The notes under the pieces: model-generated
The model's database searches: none
What the model saw: the letters and a program-made list of their open reading frames with translations, nothing else
Told to the model about the DNA's origin: nothing
Made by a program: the position numbers and the translations under genes
Source: Chlamydiia bacterium
Lineage (GTDB): Bacteria > Chlamydiota > Chlamydiia > Chlamydiales > JAAKFQ01
Assembly: GCA_041688145.1 (NCBI GenBank)
Contig: JBDNIV010000017.1
Coordinates: 35,682-99,681 of the forward strand
Reading direction: 5' to 3'
Length of the DNA: 64,000 nt
Shown here: positions 24,645 to 49,448 of the stretch, one piece after another
Layout of the letters: every line of letters starts with the position of its first letter
How positions within the stretch are numbered: the first letter of the stretch is position 1

Positions 24645-25699
24645 GCTAAGCCAATATCTTTACAACGGTAGACATCTTGAATACCGTGCAATAGCTCTAT
24701 CCCCTCTTTCATAGGACGCTGGAATGCTTTTCTTCCACAGATAAGACCAAGACCTCCTGCACGCTTGTTGATGACAGCTGTTGATACCGCATCTTGCAAA
24801 TCGTTGTCTCCAGAAGCGCCGCCCGAGTTGATAAGGCCCATACGCCCCATGTAGCAGTTGATAACCTGGTAACGCGTAAGATCAATTGGATGATCCGAAC
24901 AAAGATCTGTGTACATGCCATCGACTTGCTTACCAAACTTAAGCGTCTTAAAACCGCCGTTATTCGTTGGCAGCTTCTGCTTAATGATATCGGCTTCAAT
25001 CGTCACACCAAGATGGTTCGCCTGGCCGGTTAAATCAGCTGCTGTGTGAAAGTCTTTACCCTCTGTTTTAAAACCAGGGTTTCTAAGATAGCACCAAAGA
25101 ATTGTGGCCATGCCAAGCTCATGGGCTCTATCAAACGCTCTTGCCACATCAATAATTTGCTGGTCGCTTTCCTCAGAACCGAAATAGATTGTTGCACCTA
25201 CAGCAGCGCACCCCATCTCATAAGCTTGCTCTACTGAAGCAAACATGATCTGATTAAATGTATTAGGATATGTCATCAACTCGTTGTGATTAAGCTTAAG
25301 AATAAAAGGGATCTTATGCGCGTATTTACGTGCTACAGAACCAAGCACTCCCAACGTAGACGCTACACCACTACATCCGCCTTCAACAGCAAGCTTAACA
25401 ATGTTTTCTGAATCGAAGTAAATTGGGTTTTTAGCAAATGAAGCTCCAGCTGTATGCTCAATACCTTGGTCAACCGGCAAGATACTTAAGTACCCTGTAT
25501 CCGCAAGTCTTCCATGAGAAAAAAGCCACTGCAAGTTACACAGCACTCTGCCATTACGGTTAGAAGGAATAAAGATCCTATCTACCCAATCAGACCCAGG
25601 CTTATGTAGGTCTTTAGAACACTCGATTTTACTTTTGTAGTTTAAAAGGTCATCTGCTTGATTTCCTAGAATTTTTTCAATATCACTTAGTTTTGCCAT
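24641..25699 (-). CDS. fbaB: class I fructose-bisphosphate aldolase (DhnA type)
   Basis: [19 protein letters not shown] and [12 protein letters not shown] motifs. Confidence 0.96.
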
Positions 25700-40463: not shown

Positions 40464-41288
40464 ATGAAATTTATACTCTTTTCCAACTCACAAAAGCCCG
40501 ATGCCTTAAAAATCTCTGAAGAGATCAAATACTTCTTAGAAGGCAAGGGCCATTCAGTAATCACCGAAGACCGTAACCACCCTCTGCATGACTCTCCAGG
40601 TGATATTGATTTTTGCCTTTCCGTGGGAGGGGATGGCACTATTTTAGAGTTCTTCCATAGATACCCTGCTATTGAAGCGCCTCTTTTAGGTATTAACAGA
40701 GGCAACCTCGGCTTTATGGCTGATATTCCCCTTGATGACCTCTACCCCAGCTTAGAAGCTCTTTTAAAAGGCGCCTATACTATTGATGACCATCTAATGC
40801 TAGAATACAACTCTCGCAATGGAGACTCGCCCTATGCCGTTAATGACATTGTGATTCATAGAGGATCTTGTACAAACCTTATCGAACTCAAAATCCACGT
40901 TGATGGGAAGTACTTTAACACCTTCCGAGCTGATGGTGTTATCTTGTCTACGCCGACTGGCTCAACTGCTTACTCTTTAGCTGCTGGAGGACCACTGCTA
41001 AGCCAAGGCTTAAAAGCTATGGTACTCACCCCTATATCTCCTCACACTATCTCTAACCGCCCGATTGTCTTCTTACCTAAAAATGAGTTGCACATCGAAT
41101 ATATCTCTTCATTCGAAGGTGTTGAAGTAAGCAAAGACGGCATGAAACAGTTCGCGCTAAAGCCTAAGGAGTCGCTGACTATAAAGCCATCCCAAAGAAC
41201 ATTCAAAATAGTGAATCTAGAAAGGCGCGATGAGTACCTAACACTACGCACTAAGCTCGGCTGGTCAGGAACGCTTTCTAAGACCTAG
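40464..41288 (+). CDS. nadK: NAD kinase
   Basis: GGDGT, GNLGF, ND and STPTGSTAYSLAAGGP motifs. Confidence 0.95.
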   Translation: MKFILFSNSQKPDALKISEEIKYFLEGKGHSVITEDRNHPLHDSPGDIDFCLSVGGDGTILEFFHRYPAIEAPLLGINRGNLGFMADIPLDDLYPSLEALLKGAYTIDDHLMLEYNSRNGDSPYAVNDIVIHRGSCTNLIELKIHVDGKYFNTFRADGVILSTPTGSTAYSLAAGGPLLSQGLKAMVLTPISPHTISNRPIVFLPKNELHIEYISSFEGVEVSKDGMKQFALKPKESLTIKPSQRTFKIVNLERRDEYLTLRTKLGWSGTLSKT

Positions 41289-42445
41289 CTGAAAGATAAA
41301 GAACTGTTCATTAGTTCCTCGCTAAGTTCTCCCTTTTTGCCTTCATAAACAGCTAATCTTGCAGCTTGCGCCTGAACTTCAGCTTCTGTAACAGCTCCTT
41401 CTGGAAGCGCATTTCTTGCTGCTATCACTTCCTTAAGAGCTTGCTCTGCTGCTGCTATTTCTGCCACTACATCTGTGAGTAACGGGCTATCTTCTTCGGC
41501 TTCTTGTATCCTGGCATCTAATGGCGTATCTAACTGCTGCCATGCATTGACTAAGCTCCTATACGCTATCTCTCGTAGCGTGCCCTCAAGCTCTATCTTC
41601 TTCTCTGCATAAACAGCTAATCTTGCCTCTAGCCCTTCAGCTTCTATAACAGCTCCTTCTGGAAGCGCATTTCTTGCTTCTATCACTTCCTCAAGAGCTT
41701 GCTTTGCTCCTGCTATTTCTGCCACTAGATCTGTGAGTAACTGGCGATCTTCTTGTCCTAAGGCTTCTTGTATCCTGGCATCTAGTGGAGCATCTAAATG
41801 CTTCCATGCATTGACTAAGCCGCTATAGTGTATCGTAGCTAGCTTGCCTTCAAGTTCTGCCTTTTTCTCTGTATAAAGAGCTAATCTTGCAGCTTGCTCC
41901 TGAACTTCAGCTTCTACAACAGTCCCTTGTGTAAGCACATTTCTTGCTTCTATCACTTCCTCAAGAGCTTGCTTTGCTGCTGCTATTTCTACAACTACAG
42001 CTGTGAATAACGGGCTATCTTGCTGTTCTAAGGCTTCTTGTATCCTACCATCTAATGGATTATCTAACTGCTCCCATGCATCAGCTAATTTTTTGTACGC
42101 TTTAACTTCAGAGCTTTCAATTTTACCAGCACCGTAAATAGCTCCTCCTACTAAAATCGCTTGTGCAACAAATGCCACAGCACTCCATGACTTAGGAACA
42201 AGAATACTAAACCCATGCTCTAACGCATATTTTGCACCATAGTTCATAGCCGCTGTGCCAATTAGCGTATAAAGTGCAGAAGTTGCTAAGAAAATACCTT
42301 GAGCTCTGCCCAATGTAGCCTGGCCGACTGTGATTGAAGGAGTCACTTTTCTAGTGACGAAATGCCCAACTGCGGCTTGAAAAGCTCCACCTGCTAGCAT
42401 TAACGCTGGAAAAGCTAAATTTTTTGGTATTTGAAAGTTTGACAT
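41285..42445 (-). CDS. hypothetical membrane-anchored protein with three ~88-90-aa tandem repeats
   Basis: Hydrophobic N-terminal region followed by three helical repeats; its stop overlaps the nadK stop in a shared CTAG. Confidence 0.8.
   Translation of the reverse strand: MSNFQIPKNLAFPALMLAGGAFQAAVGHFVTRKVTPSITVGQATLGRAQGIFLATSALYTLIGTAAMNYGAKYALEHGFSILVPKSWSAVAFVAQAILVGGAIYGAGKIESSEVKAYKKLADAWEQLDNPLDGRIQEALEQQDSPLFTAVVVEIAAAKQALEEVIEARNVLTQGTVVEAEVQEQAARLALYTEKKAELEGKLATIHYSGLVNAWKHLDAPLDARIQEALGQEDRQLLTDLVAEIAGAKQALEEVIEARNALPEGAVIEAEGLEARLAVYAEKKIELEGTLREIAYRSLVNAWQQLDTPLDARIQEAEEDSPLLTDVVAEIAAAEQALKEVIAARNALPEGAVTEAEVQAQAARLAVYEGKKGELSEELMNSSLSFS
41310..42097 (-). repeat. three intragenic tandem repeats (periods 270 and 264 bp)
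   Basis: Units start at Tyr codons at 42097, 41827 and 41563; core AW..LD.PLD.RIQEA...EIA.A.QAL.EVI.ARN.L. Confidence 0.92.
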
Positions 42446-45180: not shown

Positions 45181-46077
45181 CTACTTTGCAATCTCACAAA
45201 AACGTCTTAAGCACTTACTAACTGATATGAAATGCTTCCAATACTTACCCTGAAGGTAAGGTCCTAAAAGAGGAACTGTTGAATATAGAATAGCTCTTGG
45301 ATTGTTAGAAGGTGCCCATCTAGCCCCGAGCCTGTTTCTTGCACACAAAGTAAGTGTTGGCGCAGATAAAAGCGCTGCTAAGTGCCCAGGCCCTGAATCA
45401 TTACCAATAAAAGCTCCTGACTCATAAAGGAACTTTGCGAGATCCATAAGACTATCAAACGCTTTAACCTCACAAATCGCTTTTGCTTCTTCCCACTCTT
45501 TCAAGTCCCCCTGTGAGACAATAAAAACAGGAGTAAAGCCTTTTTTCTTGAGACGCTTTGCGAGCTTCAAAAATCTGCGCTTGGACCAATTGCGAAAAGC
45601 CTCTCCACTCATAGGGTGGATGACTACTCTCTTAGAGGATAAAGCCTTTTTCCACCCTTTAGGAATTTTGAAGCTATTTTCTTTATAGGTATGCCTGCAG
45701 TCTAAAAGATCTGAGCTGAGCTCTTCATAGATTTTTCGCATTGGTTTTTTTTCATGAAAGCGAGGATCTTCCCGAAATACTAACCGCTTTTGCCCTTTAG
45801 CTAAGGGAAAGCCGCAATCATCTTCTTGCTGAGGGTAGACTAAAATATCAAAAGAAGAAAAGGCCCCTTTAGCCTCTTTCAGAGAAGGAAAAGGCTTTAT
45901 GTCAGTCTTCGGAAATAGAGCTTTTAAACCCTCTATAGCATTGCCAAAGACAGTGACCCTATAGCCATTTTCCACGAGGCGATCTCTAAGAGACATCGCA
46001 ATAATGCCATCGCCAAGCTTATTGCCGACGATAAGAGCGAGGCTGCATCTTTGAGCAGGCATTAATTTTTTCTGCAT
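45181..46077 (-). CDS. glycosyltransferase family 9 (heptosyltransferase-like)
   Basis: LGDGI, HP....RNW and FIGNDSGPGHLAA motifs. Confidence 0.88.
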   Translation of the reverse strand: MQKKLMPAQRCSLALIVGNKLGDGIIAMSLRDRLVENGYRVTVFGNAIEGLKALFPKTDIKPFPSLKEAKGAFSSFDILVYPQQEDDCGFPLAKGQKRLVFREDPRFHEKKPMRKIYEELSSDLLDCRHTYKENSFKIPKGWKKALSSKRVVIHPMSGEAFRNWSKRRFLKLAKRLKKKGFTPVFIVSQGDLKEWEEAKAICEVKAFDSLMDLAKFLYESGAFIGNDSGPGHLAALLSAPTLTLCARNRLGARWAPSNNPRAILYSTVPLLGPYLQGKYWKHFISVSKCLRRFCEIAK

Positions 46078-46089
46078 ACAAGAATAGGA

Positions 46090-46872
46090 TCATTGACCTT
46101 CTGCTTTTGCTTTCACAGAGCTCACAAGGTCTTCTAGTTCACTGATCATACCTATAGCATTTTGCTCTTTACCCACCGGATAAGTTCGTACCTCTGCCTT
46201 AAATTCCCCAGATTGATCCAATGTAAAATCTAGGGTGTAATTGTCCACTGGACCTTGACGGCGAGGGCTAGCATTAGAAGCTATTGGTGTTGAACTTTGT
46301 GTTGATACTGTAATCTGAAAAGAACGTACTAAATCCTTAGTGCCCTCTTCAGGAAGGATAGTGGAAATCTCGCAACTACAACCCTCATCTGTAAAAAATT
46401 TCTCTAGGGCGCCTTGAAGAGCATCTATTGTCAATACTTCATCCATAGCTGGAGAATACTTTTCAACTTTTGATTTATAGGCCGCTGCTTTCTCAGCTTC
46501 TGTTTGCTCTGTTTCTAAAACCTGTAAGTGATTTTTCTGATAAGCATTATAGGTAAATACAGCTCCAATAGCCACTAGAGCAACACCTAGAACTCGTATA
46601 GACAAAAGATGATTGCCTGCAAATGCTGTAAATTTATTAGCTAGAGATGCACTGTCAACTGGCTCTCCGAGTGCATGAATAGTAGATTTACTTATCACCC
46701 AGCCAATAAAGTCTACGGTATGCTTAGGAAAAGCAGCTGTAGCTAAAGGAACAAGGTATCTAACCCCTTGCCAAATGCTTCTAGGTAAAATAGATGTTAA
46801 GACACCCGGCTTGCTAGGCTCTAAAGGGGGGGTTGGCCTTGATATCGTTGCATTTGATGCTCGTGTTGCCAT
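46090..46872 (-). CDS. hypothetical membrane-anchored effector-like protein (paralogue A)
   Basis: Shares an ~80-aa domain with 47255..48124; TTGTTT-18-TAGGAT upstream. Confidence 0.75.
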   Translation of the reverse strand: MATRASNATISRPTPPLEPSKPGVLTSILPRSIWQGVRYLVPLATAAFPKHTVDFIGWVISKSTIHALGEPVDSASLANKFTAFAGNHLLSIRVLGVALVAIGAVFTYNAYQKNHLQVLETEQTEAEKAAAYKSKVEKYSPAMDEVLTIDALQGALEKFFTDEGCSCEISTILPEEGTKDLVRSFQITVSTQSSTPIASNASPRRQGPVDNYTLDFTLDQSGEFKAEVRTYPVGKEQNAIGMISELEDLVSSVKAKAEGQ

Positions 46873-46965
46873 AATAATCTCTCTCTTAGTTGTTTTCTAA
46901 AGGAGCTATCCTACCATAAATTAAATCTTATAAACAAGAGTAGAAAATGGATTATACAAATTTGG

Positions 46966-47032
46966 CTAAATCTTCAGAAAAACCCGCATGAGACTTGAGG
47001 AGAGTTTAATAGAGTAACGCAGTGAGCTTTTA
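46966..47032 (-). repeat. second copy of the holB 3' end (direct repeat of 48261..48327)
   Basis: 55/67 nt identical; encodes KSSLRYSIKLSSSLMRVFLKI* versus holB KSSLRYSIKLSSSLMRLFLKI*. Confidence 0.93.
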
Positions 47033-47254
47033 AGGCTTAATAAGAGCCGCTAAGTCATTTTCTCAGCAAGCCTGTCTTGTAAAGACATAGCAATAGTCCT
47101 ATCAATAAGCTTTTGGCCAACAATGGGAACAAGTTTAGAAGGCTCAGACTATACAGTTTTTTTGGCATAGATAAAAGCGTCATAATCTAAATAAGAATGT
47201 CAGGCCGTTATATAACTCAAGGTAGTTTTAGACCTGGAGACTCTAATTAGATTT

Positions 47255-48124
47255 TTATTCAGGAAATAAAAATTCCTCTATCCGCGTTGCAAGGTGCTTT
47301 TTCATTAATTCATGACCGCTGTATCCACCAGAAATCATCGTCATCACAAATTCCGCGGGCTTCGTGGTTTTATCAGTATTAACAAAGACGCCTACTGGGC
47401 CTTTAAACATGTCTGATTTATCTGGGCCTTTAAACCTGTCCGATTCATCTGGGTCTCTAAGTATGCATTGAAATGTTAAAGGGTCGTAGTGCTTTCCGTA
47501 GAAACTTGCTTCAATTTTGACGTATAAATATTCTCCCTTAACCCATGTAGTGCAAACTGTTGCTATCTTGGAATGTGTATACCAGCGTTTAACAAACGGC
47601 GTTGCGGCCCATATCTCCTTGCTATTTTTAAAATCCTGGGTGATTGTAGCAAATAACTTATCTAATAAATCGGGCTCTGCTTTTAGCCTTTTAAGGACCT
47701 TTTTATGTTTTATGGGCTCTAATTCCAAAGCGTTTATAAGGACCTCTTTATTTTTTAAGGGGTCTGCTTGCAAAGCGTTTATTAAGTTAGCTTGCTTAGA
47801 TGGCTCATCTAATTTTTGCTGACAAGACCTGTGGATCATTGCCACAGCTAAAGCTAACAAAGCTACACCTACGATGCGCACCGCTAGAAGGTGGTTAGCT
47901 GCAAATGCTCTAAATCTTTTTGCCAAAGCTGCAGTATCATACCGCTCACCAGCTACGTGGATAGTCGAAGCACTAATCATCCAGCCTATAAAGGCTACAG
48001 CTTGTTTGGGGAAAGTTGCTATAGCTGCAGATACTAGATAGCTAGCGCCTTGCCAGGCATTTCTAGGTAAAATAGAACTTATAAAATTAGGAGCTTGGGG
48101 GGTTGTATTTCTGCGAGGCGCCAT
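47255..48124 (-). CDS. hypothetical membrane-anchored effector-like protein (paralogue B)
   Basis: SILPR..WQG..YLV..A.A.FPK..V.FIGW.IS.STIH domain plus TM; C-terminus unrelated to paralogue A. Confidence 0.75.
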   Translation of the reverse strand: MAPRRNTTPQAPNFISSILPRNAWQGASYLVSAAIATFPKQAVAFIGWMISASTIHVAGERYDTAALAKRFRAFAANHLLAVRIVGVALLALAVAMIHRSCQQKLDEPSKQANLINALQADPLKNKEVLINALELEPIKHKKVLKRLKAEPDLLDKLFATITQDFKNSKEIWAATPFVKRWYTHSKIATVCTTWVKGEYLYVKIEASFYGKHYDPLTFQCILRDPDESDRFKGPDKSDMFKGPVGVFVNTDKTTKPAEFVMTMISGGYSGHELMKKHLATRIEEFLFPE

Positions 48125-48260
48125 AGCATCCCGGTTTAAAACAGGTAAAGATGGGCGAACAGGGTTAGAAGAGATGGCTAATCTCTTTTTTAGTTAATAA
48201 AGTGAGTATTTTATCACATTAAAACATTTCCAAGAAACCTAAAAAATTTTCTAACTATAG

Positions 48261-49448
48261 CTAAATCTTGAGAAAGAGGCGCATAAGGCTAGAAGAGAGC
48301 TTAATCGAATAGCGCAGTGAGCTTTTAGCCTCTATAAGAAGATTTTCTATATGAGCTAAAGATTGAATAAAAGTCCCTAGCGCTAGCTGAGAACTTTGTA
48401 GCCACTTTCCTACTTCCTCTTTCTTATAAGCTATACTCATATCAATCGGTAGAGGAAACAACTTATATTCTTCTAAGCCTTTTTCTAGCCCCGGAGCCTC
48501 TTGAGAAAGCTGGAGTAGAGAAAGATCTCTAACAAAAAAAAGGATGAGTTCAAAAAGCTCATCTATCAGCTCAGACTTAAAAAGCGCTGCTTCCCCTTCA
48601 ATCTGCTTTTGCTGCATCTCTGCTACTAAAGGTGTGAAGCGCTCTTTTTGGTCATCAAATCGGGCTAAAAGCTCTTTTTCTAAATGCGCCTTTTGATCTT
48701 CTATATGCTTTTCTAAGTAAGTGGCAAAGTCTGCCATGCTTACAAGACCCATATCCCCAGAAAAGAGCCTTCGCATACCCACTGTAAAAGTTTGTAAAAA
48801 CTCTTCTGAAAGCTCTTGAGCAAGTCTCCGAGCTCTAGCAGGAGATCCTCTTGAAGCTTTAGCAAGAGCCTCGGCCTCTTTACTTCCTACTTCAAATGAC
48901 TGCTCAAGCCACGAGGCAATCTCTTTTTCATCTACGGGGAAAAAGGGCACTTTTTGACAACGGGATTTAAGAGTTGTAAGCAGCTTTTCAGGATCGGAGC
49001 TTGTGAGTATAAAAAGAGTGTCTTCAGGAGGCTCTTCCAAGGTTTTTAATAAGAAGTTCGCAGCAATGTCAGGCAACCGTTCTGCATCTTGTAAGATAAA
49101 GACTTTAAAGGTGCTGAGCGTTGGAGGAAGAAAGACTTGAGAAACTAAATGCTTCATCGAATCGATTGTGTGCAAAGCGAGCTTTCCCTGAGGCTTAAAC
49201 AGGTGTAAATCGGGATGTGACTCCCACAGATTCACATCGATACGAGAGCTTTTCTTTAAAACGTCTAAAGCCCATGTTTTTGCTAAGAAGGCCTTTCCAA
49301 TTCCTTTAGGGCCATGAAAAAGTAGTGCAAGACCGAGGTTCGGCTTTTTATCTTCTTGCCCACTTGAAGAATTATGCAAGTCGCTTTTTTTACAAAGCCC
49401 AAGCAAACGCAGACGCCTTTGCGCCTCTGGGTTCCCAATTACATCCAT
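48261..49448 (-). CDS. holB: DNA polymerase III subunit delta'
   Basis: GPKGIGK, HPDL, ANFLLKTLEEPP and T.KSRC motifs; follows tmk. Confidence 0.92.
   Translation of the reverse strand: MDVIGNPEAQRRLRLLGLCKKSDLHNSSSGQEDKKPNLGLALLFHGPKGIGKAFLAKTWALDVLKKSSRIDVNLWESHPDLHLFKPQGKLALHTIDSMKHLVSQVFLPPTLSTFKVFILQDAERLPDIAANFLLKTLEEPPEDTLFILTSSDPEKLLTTLKSRCQKVPFFPVDEKEIASWLEQSFEVGSKEAEALAKASRGSPARARRLAQELSEEFLQTFTVGMRRLFSGDMGLVSMADFATYLEKHIEDQKAHLEKELLARFDDQKERFTPLVAEMQQKQIEGEAALFKSELIDELFELILFFVRDLSLLQLSQEAPGLEKGLEEYKLFPLPIDMSIAYKKEEVGKWLQSSQLALGTFIQSLAHIENLLIEAKSSLRYSIKLSSSLMRLFLKI

What the first reader, a model, noticed from the sequence alone, without database searches (positions are those of the whole stretch)
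46966..48327. Synonymously diverged duplicate of the holB 3' end brackets an effector-like gene, suggesting a cassette-accretion site
Seen: 46966-47032 repeats holB's last 67 nt (48261-48327) in the same orientation with 12 mismatches. Eleven fall on third codon positions; ten codons change synonymously and only one changes amino acid (L to V). On the coding strand the order is holB end, gene B, holB-end copy, gene A, where A and B are paralogues. Inference: a dead copy decaying neutrally would not keep this codon pattern, so both ends were probably under coding selection in separate lineages. A unit of holB tail plus effector-like gene may have entered from a diverged relative by recombination in the essential gene's tail, displacing the old tail. 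No integrase is visible, so this could be a recombination-driven effector array anchored on a core gene.
Basis: partly seen in the sequence, partly recalled or inferred. Interest (0 to 1): 0.8.

Follow-up and report, generated by a model that had tools for sequence, protein, structure and literature searches.

The report
Two gene alleles stacked behind holB
In a lake-dwelling chlamydial bacterium, a short piece of chromosome occurs twice in a row, leaving a spare copy of the end of the essential gene holB and a broken start of the next gene between two related membrane-protein genes; this is most likely the scar of recombination between two diverged relatives, a known kind of event rather than a new system.

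Summary
The whole unit [holB tail, gene, GT9 head] is therefore doubled, and A and B look like two alleles of one locus. A sister holB (84% identical) ends with the copy's valine. Decay since the split is rejected (1 of 44 first/second-position changes, 0.32 per site expected; P = 1e-6). Best reading: one additive recombination between lineages, anchored by homology on one side and joined illegitimately on the other. Direction and cassette-number variation are untested. Two more core genes here (cdsV, lpxB) have tail copies bracketing lone genes; 4 of 1026 tails score 50 or more, against 0 heads. This is a known kind (HFIR, icd/icdC, long target duplication), and this scan has noted similar scars in other genomes. 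Effector function is unproven.

The parts
48261..49448 (-). holB, DNA polymerase III delta-prime subunit, 395 aa, intact, downstream of gyrB-gyrA-tmk
   Evidence: Pfam PF13177 E = 2.8e-28; ORFs
48261..48327 (-). Live 3' tail of holB (leucine version), last 22 codons including the stop
48125..48260 (-). Upstream region of gene B, weakly similar to the upstream region of gene A. Other strains have an ATG at 48173-48175 that gives a 306-aa B
   Evidence: local alignment over about 74 nt, no shuffle control; difference at 48173 in X2, X3, X6 and L032; P0016
47255..48124 (-). Gene B, 289 aa: conserved hydrophobic N-terminal part shared with A, and its own C-terminal part; no Pfam family
47036..47168 (-). 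Decayed 5' head (about 45 codons) of the GT9 glycosyltransferase gene, with a frameshift, stops, and the invariant glycine replaced
   Evidence: tblastx 34 aa, 53%, E = 0.002; DNA score 90, reached by 0 of 500 shuffles; G22 in 19 of 19 homologues, I in the remnant
47032..47033 (.). Junction between the GT9 head remnant and the holB tail copy. In run X6 two records break here, and the tail copy reaches about 30 nt further into holB
   Evidence: records 11 and 12, loose end; 23 of 29 identical to holB 48330-48358 with one gap; 0 of 2000 shuffles
46966..47032 (-). Orphan copy of the holB 3' tail (valine version), with no start codon in frame
46873..46965 (-). Upstream region of gene A
46090..46872 (-). 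Gene A, 260 aa: shared N-terminal part with one predicted membrane segment near residues 84-110, and a C-terminal alpha/beta domain
45181..46077 (-). Intact family-9 glycosyltransferase gene (GT9)
   Evidence: Pfam PF01075 E = 1.9e-12

Best explanation
The doubled unit [holB tail, A/B gene, GT9 head] most likely arose when a chromosome fragment from a diverged relative was added by homologous recombination at one end and an illegitimate join at the other, so that two lineages' alleles of one locus now lie in tandem. Shown: the doubled unit; a junction between a dead GT9 head and a dead holB tail; a tail that differs from the live one almost only at silent sites; the copy's valine in a live sister holB. 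Inferred: both lineages carried holB-[A/B allele]-GT9 and had diverged by roughly 0.8 substitutions per third position. The crossover lay in holB (or in GT9). The far end was joined about 70-100 nt before the holB stop. holB and GT9 each kept one whole copy, so the event was harmless and left the cell with both genes. The leftover fragments have since decayed modestly. Slightly favoured direction (about 60:40, inferred): holB 3' part, B and the GT9 head came in, and the valine tail, A and GT9 are the resident. RecA and a ComEC-family gene are present; the route of DNA entry is untested.
For: (1) Codon pattern of the tail is 1/0/11 of 22 per position. If one copy had been dead since the split, 0.32 of first/second positions should differ; P(1 or fewer of 44) = 1e-6. 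Adding the 29-nt extension seen in X6 gives 4 of 63, P = 2e-4. (2) P0004, a holB 84% identical and seen on another contig, ends with the same valine as the copy. (3) Third-position divergence is about 50% in all three doubled parts: tail 11 of 22, A/B N-terminus 49 of 95, GT9 head 22 of 44, as expected for one pair of parental segments. (4) The GT9 head remnant shows the unit includes both flanks, as a chromosomal fragment would. (5) A third family member with yet another C-terminal part exists (P0019), which fits one variable locus with several alleles. (6) The genome has only two tyrosine-recombinase matches, both on other contigs; recA and a ComEC-family gene are present. (7) GC content of the B region, 37-44%, matches the genome's 41%. 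(8) P0003 and P0004 agree in 259 of 275 columns before alignment column 311, in 20 of 56 after it, and in 29 of 30 in the tail, which fits a swapped 3' part of holB.
Against: No DNA of a single-unit relative could be obtained, so neither the empty site nor either parent is shown. The GT9 head is far more changed at first/second positions than the tail (11 of 44 in the ungapped core against 1 of 44, Fisher p = 0.003), and about as much as plain decay predicts. One event must therefore lean on GT9 evolving faster, plus modest decay. The invariant glycine would need at least two hits (inference from codons). The X6 extension looks more decayed than the distal 67 nt (3 of 19 against 1 of 44, p = 0.08). 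The low-identity block in holB is also variable between other pairs (36-69%), so it does not prove a mosaic. The 67-nt window was defined by similarity, which biases the count toward conservation. The X6 evidence is one 151-nt contig, possibly a single duplicated read, and two other genome sites score slightly higher than the holB site against its loose end (38 against 36).
Confidence: 0.6

Rival explanations
1. Two-step history: an old tandem duplication or capture left a dead GT9 head and a dead holB piece. Ordinary homologous recombination with a valine-tail, single-unit relative later replaced the distal part of the dead tail. The scar would then work as a reusable handle that lets cassette B move by double crossover.
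For: Mixed ages in one scar. The GT9 head has 14/12/22 mismatches of 44 per position, close to neutral decay. The X6 extension has non-synonymous changes and a 1-nt gap, while the distal 67 nt are intact. X6 differs from the window at only 1 of 159 nt over the tail copy and A's upstream region, against 5-10 per 140-240 nt in neighbouring pieces.
Against: The heterogeneity is weak (p = 0.02-0.16 depending on how the valine and the X6 change are counted). A single event with about 0.06 changes per site of decay gives P = 0.25 for the intact tail. It needs an extra event, and it rests partly on one short contig.
Confidence: 0.2
2. Remnant of an integrative element that targeted the holB 3' end and supplied a replacement tail (as with icd, e14 and icdC), and later lost its integrase.
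For: Same geometry as icd/icdC, where the displaced C-terminal fragment differs mostly by synonymous changes (PMC13626634, passages). A 15-nt identical block lies at the inner edge of the repeat.
Against: The insert holds only a paralogue of the next gene and a piece of the gene after that, which is chromosomal content. No PF00589 integrase match lies on this contig. No family match was found in viral contigs. In X6 the copy extends past the 15-nt block. The three tail copies in this genome sit at three unrelated genes.
Confidence: 0.08
3. Plain tandem duplication within one lineage, followed by neutral decay of the spare fragments and divergence of A and B. The codon pattern of the tail would be chance, or the result of an unknown constraint.
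For: The doubled unit has the shape of a tandem duplication. The GT9 head fits neutral decay (26 of 88 first/second positions against 0.32 expected). GT9 and holB share a 9-nt word near the junction. The lpxB tail copy elsewhere shows pure decay (1/3/0).
Against: P = 1e-6 for the tail (2e-4 with the extension). The one amino-acid change matches a live sister gene. There is no start codon in frame and no terminator-like site in the copy to explain a constraint. The 9-nt word is 1 of 25 such words shared by the two genes.
Confidence: 0.08
4. Chimeric assembly of two strains.
For: The genome is a 51-contig assembly, and local depth in the runs laid is low, about 3-5.
Against: Single contigs in runs of three studies cross the junctions with 0-1 differences. 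L032 spans B to GT9. A related strain (X6) has both tails. The 12 mismatches in 67 nt leave no long shared word.
Confidence: 0.02

Closest known systems
Homology-facilitated illegitimate recombination (HFIR) and sequential displacement at Vibrio cholerae T6SS effector-immunity loci (PMC5361080, passages read; the original HFIR papers of de Vries and Wackernagel 2002 and Prudhomme et al. 2002 seen only as reference-list entries in PMC2884548)
   Same: An incoming allele is anchored by homology on one side and joined illegitimately on the other. The older content is shifted downstream, no integrase is involved, and orphan gene fragments remain between units.
   Different: Here the anchor is a housekeeping gene, both full-length alleles are kept, no immunity genes are apparent, only two units are seen, and no population of strains was available to show the steps.
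E. coli icd / e14 / icdC displaced C-terminal fragment (PMC13626634, passages read)
   Same: A live gene end and a downstream dead copy of it that differ mainly by synonymous changes, bracketing inserted DNA.
   Different: e14 is a 15-kb prophage that excises by site-specific recombination. Here the insert is 1.3 kb of chromosomal paralogous content with no integrase.
Insertion with long target duplication (Furuta, Abe and Kobayashi 2010, PMC2853133, passages read)
   Same: A gene inserted without other mobile elements, flanked by direct repeats longer than 30 bp. This fits the cdsV (75 nt) and lpxB (42 nt) sites of this genome best.
   Different: The published cases carry restriction-modification genes, and the repeats in the rows seen are nearly identical (44 of 46, 47 of 47). 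The holB repeats differ at 12 of 67 nt in a coding pattern, and the next gene's head is doubled too.
Staphylococcus aureus lpl tandem paralogue cluster (PMC2568036, abstract and outline only)
   Same: Tandem paralogues with a conserved and a variable part, where the unit of evolution spans gene boundaries.
   Different: In lpl the recombining conserved region lies inside the paralogues and the arrays are long. Here the repeated handles are pieces of the flanking housekeeping genes.

Membership tests
HFIR-type additive capture from a related lineage | Long homologous anchor on one side of the added DNA | tested here: inconclusive
   holB (or GT9) is available as an anchor. The identity drop in holB columns 311-366 against P0004 is suggestive, but the region is variable in other pairs too.
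HFIR-type additive capture from a related lineage | Illegitimate junction joining unrelated sequences at the other end | tested here: met
   GT9 head remnant joined to the holB tail copy at 47032/47033.
HFIR-type additive capture from a related lineage | Duplicated fragments come from two lineages (divergence under coding selection) | tested here: met
   1/0/11 codon pattern, P = 1e-6 against decay since the split; valine shared with live P0004.
HFIR-type additive capture from a related lineage | Microhomology at the illegitimate junction | tested here: inconclusive
   A 9-nt word is shared near the junction, but it is 1 of 25 shared 9-mers, and X6 places the original join about 30 nt further up.
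HFIR-type additive capture from a related lineage | Parental single-unit alleles seen in relatives | not testable with these tools
   The genome is the only one of its genus in the collection. The contigs of P0004 and P0019 were not retrieved.
Integrative element with a replacement gene end (icd/e14 type) | Integrase or recombinase gene inside or beside the insert | tested here: not met
   Two PF00589 matches in the genome, on contigs C26 and C45, none on C32. The insert holds only gene B and the GT9 remnant. Serine recombinases and DDE transposases were not searched genome-wide.
Integrative element with a replacement gene end (icd/e14 type) | Displaced 3' gene fragment in direct orientation beyond the insert | tested here: met
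Insertion with long target duplication | Direct repeat over 30 bp, insert under 20 kb, no mobile-element genes | tested here: met
   67-81 nt repeat, 1295-nt spacing; criteria from PMC2853133.
Insertion with long target duplication | Restriction-modification cargo | tested here: not met
   B has no Pfam match at E up to 0.1.
Insertion with long target duplication | Empty site with a single target copy in a close relative | not testable with these tools
   No close relative's locus was available. Other Chlamydiota have unrelated sequence after holB.
Type III secreted effector / Inc protein | Bilobed hydrophobic domain of about 40 or more residues (Inc; feature named in the abstract of PMC3048545 in the search listing; length recalled) | tested here: inconclusive
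   One clear hydrophobic segment in A and B and a weaker one upstream; none above the threshold in P0019.
Type III secreted effector / Inc protein | Secretion through the type III system | not testable with these tools
   The genome encodes the export gate CdsV. The N-termini are S/T/P-rich and poor in acidic residues. These are hints only.

The most novel reading that the evidence does not exclude
This small-genome chlamydial lineage gains host-interaction genes mainly by integrase-free capture at the 3' ends of core genes (holB, cdsV, lpxB). At holB the dead tail is a reusable recombination handle: a cassette flanked by holB homology on both sides can be added, swapped or lost by ordinary recombination between strains, giving a population-level array of membrane-anchored effectors with exchangeable C-terminal domains.
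Probability: 0.2. Interest if true: 0.6.

Novelty: new member of a known kind. Interest (0 to 1): 0.33.

Why it matters
It is an unusually readable scar. The silent-site pattern, the residue shared with a sister gene and the broken head of the next gene together suggest that an apparent pair of tandem paralogues came from recombination between relatives, not from duplication within one genome. If that is general, some 'gene family expansions' in environmental chlamydiae would be stacked foreign alleles, and tail copies would be a cheap marker for finding recently acquired host-interaction genes (here an F-box gene and two other lone genes). The mechanism itself is known, and the scan has recorded similar scars in several other genomes.

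Tried and rejected
Searches for relatives of A and B: the 5.8-billion-protein search returned only A for query A, and A plus P0019 for the three-member alignment. The 1.84-billion representative search returned 3 proteins. 0 of 299 other scored genomes of the order matched (one genome not scored). Viral contigs gave none. The ESM Atlas gave no usable feature hit for A or B, and structure rows for A had TM under 0.3 by query.

Searches for DNA of a close relative: metagenome scans gave nothing for holB and only L032, the same organism, for the A/B family. The genome-contig scan gave 4 distant loci. No RNA holder was listed.

Folding: the shared N-terminal part gave a low-confidence helical model (pLDDT 58) and was not searched. 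A's C-terminal part gave pLDDT 78; Foldseek found no match at E <= 0.001, and the best VIA match was SPLUNC1 (Z 8.0, rmsd 4.3, 112 aligned), which may be only a common arrangement.

Other checks: the order-wide search with the CdsV C-terminus could not separate tail copies from paralogues, because second matches were not listed, so I drew nothing from it. An IS or MITE end at 47033 was rejected because the spacer is single-copy in the genome and is GT9-derived. A Xer-type site was considered by eye and not pursued. A small ORF using the tail copy was rejected (no in-frame start). A promoter or terminator constraint on the copy is not supported: promoter-like sites were fewer than in shuffles, and none of the 3 terminator-like sites lies in the copy. 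TGA recoding is not indicated (95 of 535 long ORFs end in TGA).

Literature: one search returned irrelevant papers. One search returned 3 papers, none read. One search (holB, integration site, genomic island, duplicated) returned 0. Searches listed no paper on this locus. The library lacks most subscription journals, and I did not look at supplements.
Full report
1. Observation. The repeat is exactly as described. Window 46966-47032 and 48261-48327 align without gaps with 12 mismatches: 11 at third positions, 1 at a first position (L to V), 10 synonymous codons, and the same stop. The first 15 nt on the coding strand are identical. Self-BLAST gives E = 9e-13. The upstream gene is holB (PF13177), after gyrB-gyrA-tmk. 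A (46090-46872) and B (47255-48124) share about 95 N-terminal residues at 53% and nothing detectable beyond; no other paralogue is in the 1.28-Mb, 92%-complete genome. The lineage is chlamydial (source name of a homologue; record title). The five runs that hold about half or more of the stretch are lake or freshwater metagenomes.

2. Assembly. One contig of run X1 covers 45960-48330 with no difference, so it contains both copies, although it ends 3 nt past the live tail. X2 covers 46498-47375 (0 differences) and X3 covers 47878-48486 (1 difference). These come from three studies, one of which may be the source. L032 covers 45569-48213 at 99.2%. A chimera is very unlikely.

3. The 222-nt spacer between B's stop and the tail copy contains a decayed copy of the 5' head of the GT9 glycosyltransferase gene that follows A. 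The tblastx match is 34 aa, 53%, E = 0.002. The DNA score is 90, reached by 0 of 500 shuffles (maximum 68). It has a frameshift and stops, and the glycine found in 19 of 19 homologues is isoleucine. The structure is thus holB(L tail)-B-GT9 head | holB tail(V)-A-GT9: the whole unit is doubled and joined at 47032/47033. The two upstream regions are also weakly alike (no shuffle control).

4. Were both tails under coding selection? Third-position divergence is about 50% in all three doubled parts: tail 11 of 22, A/B 49 of 95, GT9 head 22 of 44. If one copy had been dead since they split, 0.32 of first and second positions should differ. The GT9 head shows 26 of 88 (11 of 44 in its ungapped core). 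The tail shows 1 of 44 (P = 1e-6; Fisher test against the core, p = 0.003). The single amino-acid difference, valine, is the residue in P0004, a full-length holB 84% identical to this one. So the copy was very probably part of a working holB in another lineage for most of the divergence time (inference). One caveat is that the 67-nt window was chosen by similarity.

Run X6, a related strain about 95-97% identical, allows a partial correction. It has both tails. Two of its records break at 47032, and one continues into a sequence matching holB 48330-48358 at 23 of 29 nt with a 1-nt gap. That score was reached by 0 of 2000 shuffles; for the GT9 site 1228 of 2000 shuffles reached the score; two unrelated genome sites score slightly higher. 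My note said 22 of 29, but the printed alignment shows 23. The displaced piece was therefore probably about 97 nt, and the window strain lost about 30 nt. Counting this extension gives 4 of 63 first/second-position changes, still far below decay since the split (P = 2e-4). X6's copy also has one new non-synonymous change, as a now-dead sequence should. This rests on short contigs of 151-180 nt.

5. Mechanism. The simplest history is one additive recombination between two lineages that each had holB-[allele]-GT9: a homologous crossover at one end and an illegitimate join at the other. Each flanking gene keeps one whole copy, so the cell gains a second allele at no cost. Direction is symmetrical in principle. 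P0004 agrees with this holB in 259 of 275 columns up to column 310, in 20 of 56 after it, and carries the valine tail. This slightly favours an incoming holB 3' part with B, but the same block is 36-69% identical in six other pairs, so the hint is weak. RecA and a ComEC-family gene are present; the only two tyrosine recombinases are on other contigs. Inter-strain and inter-species homologous recombination is documented in Chlamydia (PMC8936141, passages). The main tension is that the GT9 head is much more decayed than the tail. A modest decay of about 0.06 per site plus faster evolution of GT9 can cover it (P = 0.25 for the intact tail). A two-step history, in which an old scar was later refreshed from a valine-tail relative, is not excluded (heterogeneity p = 0.02-0.16). 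I give 0.6 to the single event and 0.2 to the two-step version; both involve two lineages.

6. Genome-wide context. I scanned the last, first and middle 80 nt of 1026 ORFs against non-coding DNA within 6 kb. Scores of 50 or more were found for 4 tails, 0 heads and 0 middles. Besides holB these are:
- cdsV, the type III export gate: a 75-nt copy 1.9 kb downstream, mismatches 1/1/4 plus one insertion, bracketing a 561-aa gene with no Pfam match.
- lpxB: a 42-nt copy 1.0 kb downstream, mismatches 1/3/0, bracketing an F-box gene.
- A 494-aa protein on C26, whose C-terminal coding stretch recurs 259 nt downstream.
In the first two, the bracketed gene lies on the opposite strand and has no evident paralogue after the copy, so they resemble insertion with long target duplication more than allele stacking. 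The excess of tails is expected if only insertions that leave the core gene whole survive (inference). The scan missed the known GT9 head (score 32), so it under-counts old fragments. No holB tail copy was found in 29 distinct loci of other genomes where a stop codon could be located (scores 12-26 against 92 here). Three further loci were dropped: two without a stop and one duplicate. Only 129-1422 nt downstream were available, while the copy here lies 1215 nt downstream. The one same-family genome has an unrelated 431-aa ORF after holB.

7. The genes. The family has three known members (A, B, P0019), with a shared N-terminal part and different C-terminal parts. The N-termini are S/T/P-rich and nearly free of acidic residues. 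A and B have one clear hydrophobic segment. There is no Pfam, Atlas or clear fold match. 'Membrane-anchored, possibly type III-secreted' is a fair guess, not a result.

8. Comparison with what is known. It works like homology-facilitated illegitimate recombination as proposed for Vibrio T6SS arrays (PMC5361080, passages). It has the geometry of icd/icdC (PMC13626634, passages) without the prophage or integrase. It meets the length criteria, but not the cargo criterion, of insertion with long target duplication (PMC2853133, passages). Searches listed nothing on this locus; the library is incomplete. The scan's own notes list similar scars at dnaK, rplA, gabD, mfd and alaS, and at yqgE in another chlamydia. 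I did not check those, and I had named the icd/e14 analogy and searched for HFIR before reading them.

9. Verdict. An active effector array is not shown: there are two units, no second accretion step, no cassette-number data and no functional evidence. It is a new, well-resolved member of a known kind. Interest 0.33.

Noticed in passing
L036 (G000 C33:34036-38380): The last 75 nt of cdsV (type III export gate) recur 1.9 kb downstream with 6 substitutions and a 1-nt insertion. They bracket a 561-aa gene with no Pfam match and are followed by an 89-aa hydrophobic ORF.
   Followed up: partly
L035 (G000 C12:25592-27485): A 42-nt copy of the lpxB 3' end brackets an F-box gene (283 aa, PF00646) between lpxB and a small ORF that looks like rpmF (name recalled from its sequence). 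The repeated stretch looks by eye like a terminator hairpin serving the converging gene.
   Followed up: partly
G000 C12:about 25499-25501: lpxB is interrupted by an in-frame TGA, so it reads as two ORFs with LpxB Pfam matches. This is either a pseudogene or an assembly error; TGA is an ordinary stop in this genome.
   Followed up: partly
G000 C26:28200-31002: A 494-aa protein whose C-terminal coding stretch recurs 259 nt downstream, in a 1.3-kb region without long ORFs. It looks like a polymorphic-toxin-type gene with an orphan C-terminal module (impression only; no family search).
   Followed up: no
window 41285-42445: A 386-aa protein with a hydrophobic N-terminus and three helical repeats of about 260 nt (64-85% identical), effector- or Inc-like, with no clear Pfam match. 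Runs X1, X2 and X5 show sequence variants and loose ends here, suggesting further copies or alleles.
   Followed up: no
window 48173: X2, X3, X6 and L032 read a different base here, which creates an upstream ATG for gene B (306 aa instead of 289). The window's start may be a strain variant or an error.
   Followed up: partly
window 47689-47778 and 47395-47448: Gene B has internal tandem repeats (45 nt twice, 27 nt twice). In X2 and L032 the 45-nt units differ from the window at several positions.
   Followed up: no
window 48351-48520 (holB residues about 311-365): A hypervariable segment of holB: 20 of 56 columns identical to P0004, against 94% upstream, with a 9-residue length difference.
   Followed up: partly
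G000 C2, C12, C18, C23, C29, C37: A family of large repeated proteins (up to 1239 aa) with near-identical N-terminal stretches on several contigs, often at contig ends.
   Followed up: no
L031 (G001 C29): In the only same-family genome, a 256-aa ORF lies between tmk and holB and a 431-aa ORF follows holB, so both sides of holB take up lineage-specific genes.
   Followed up: no
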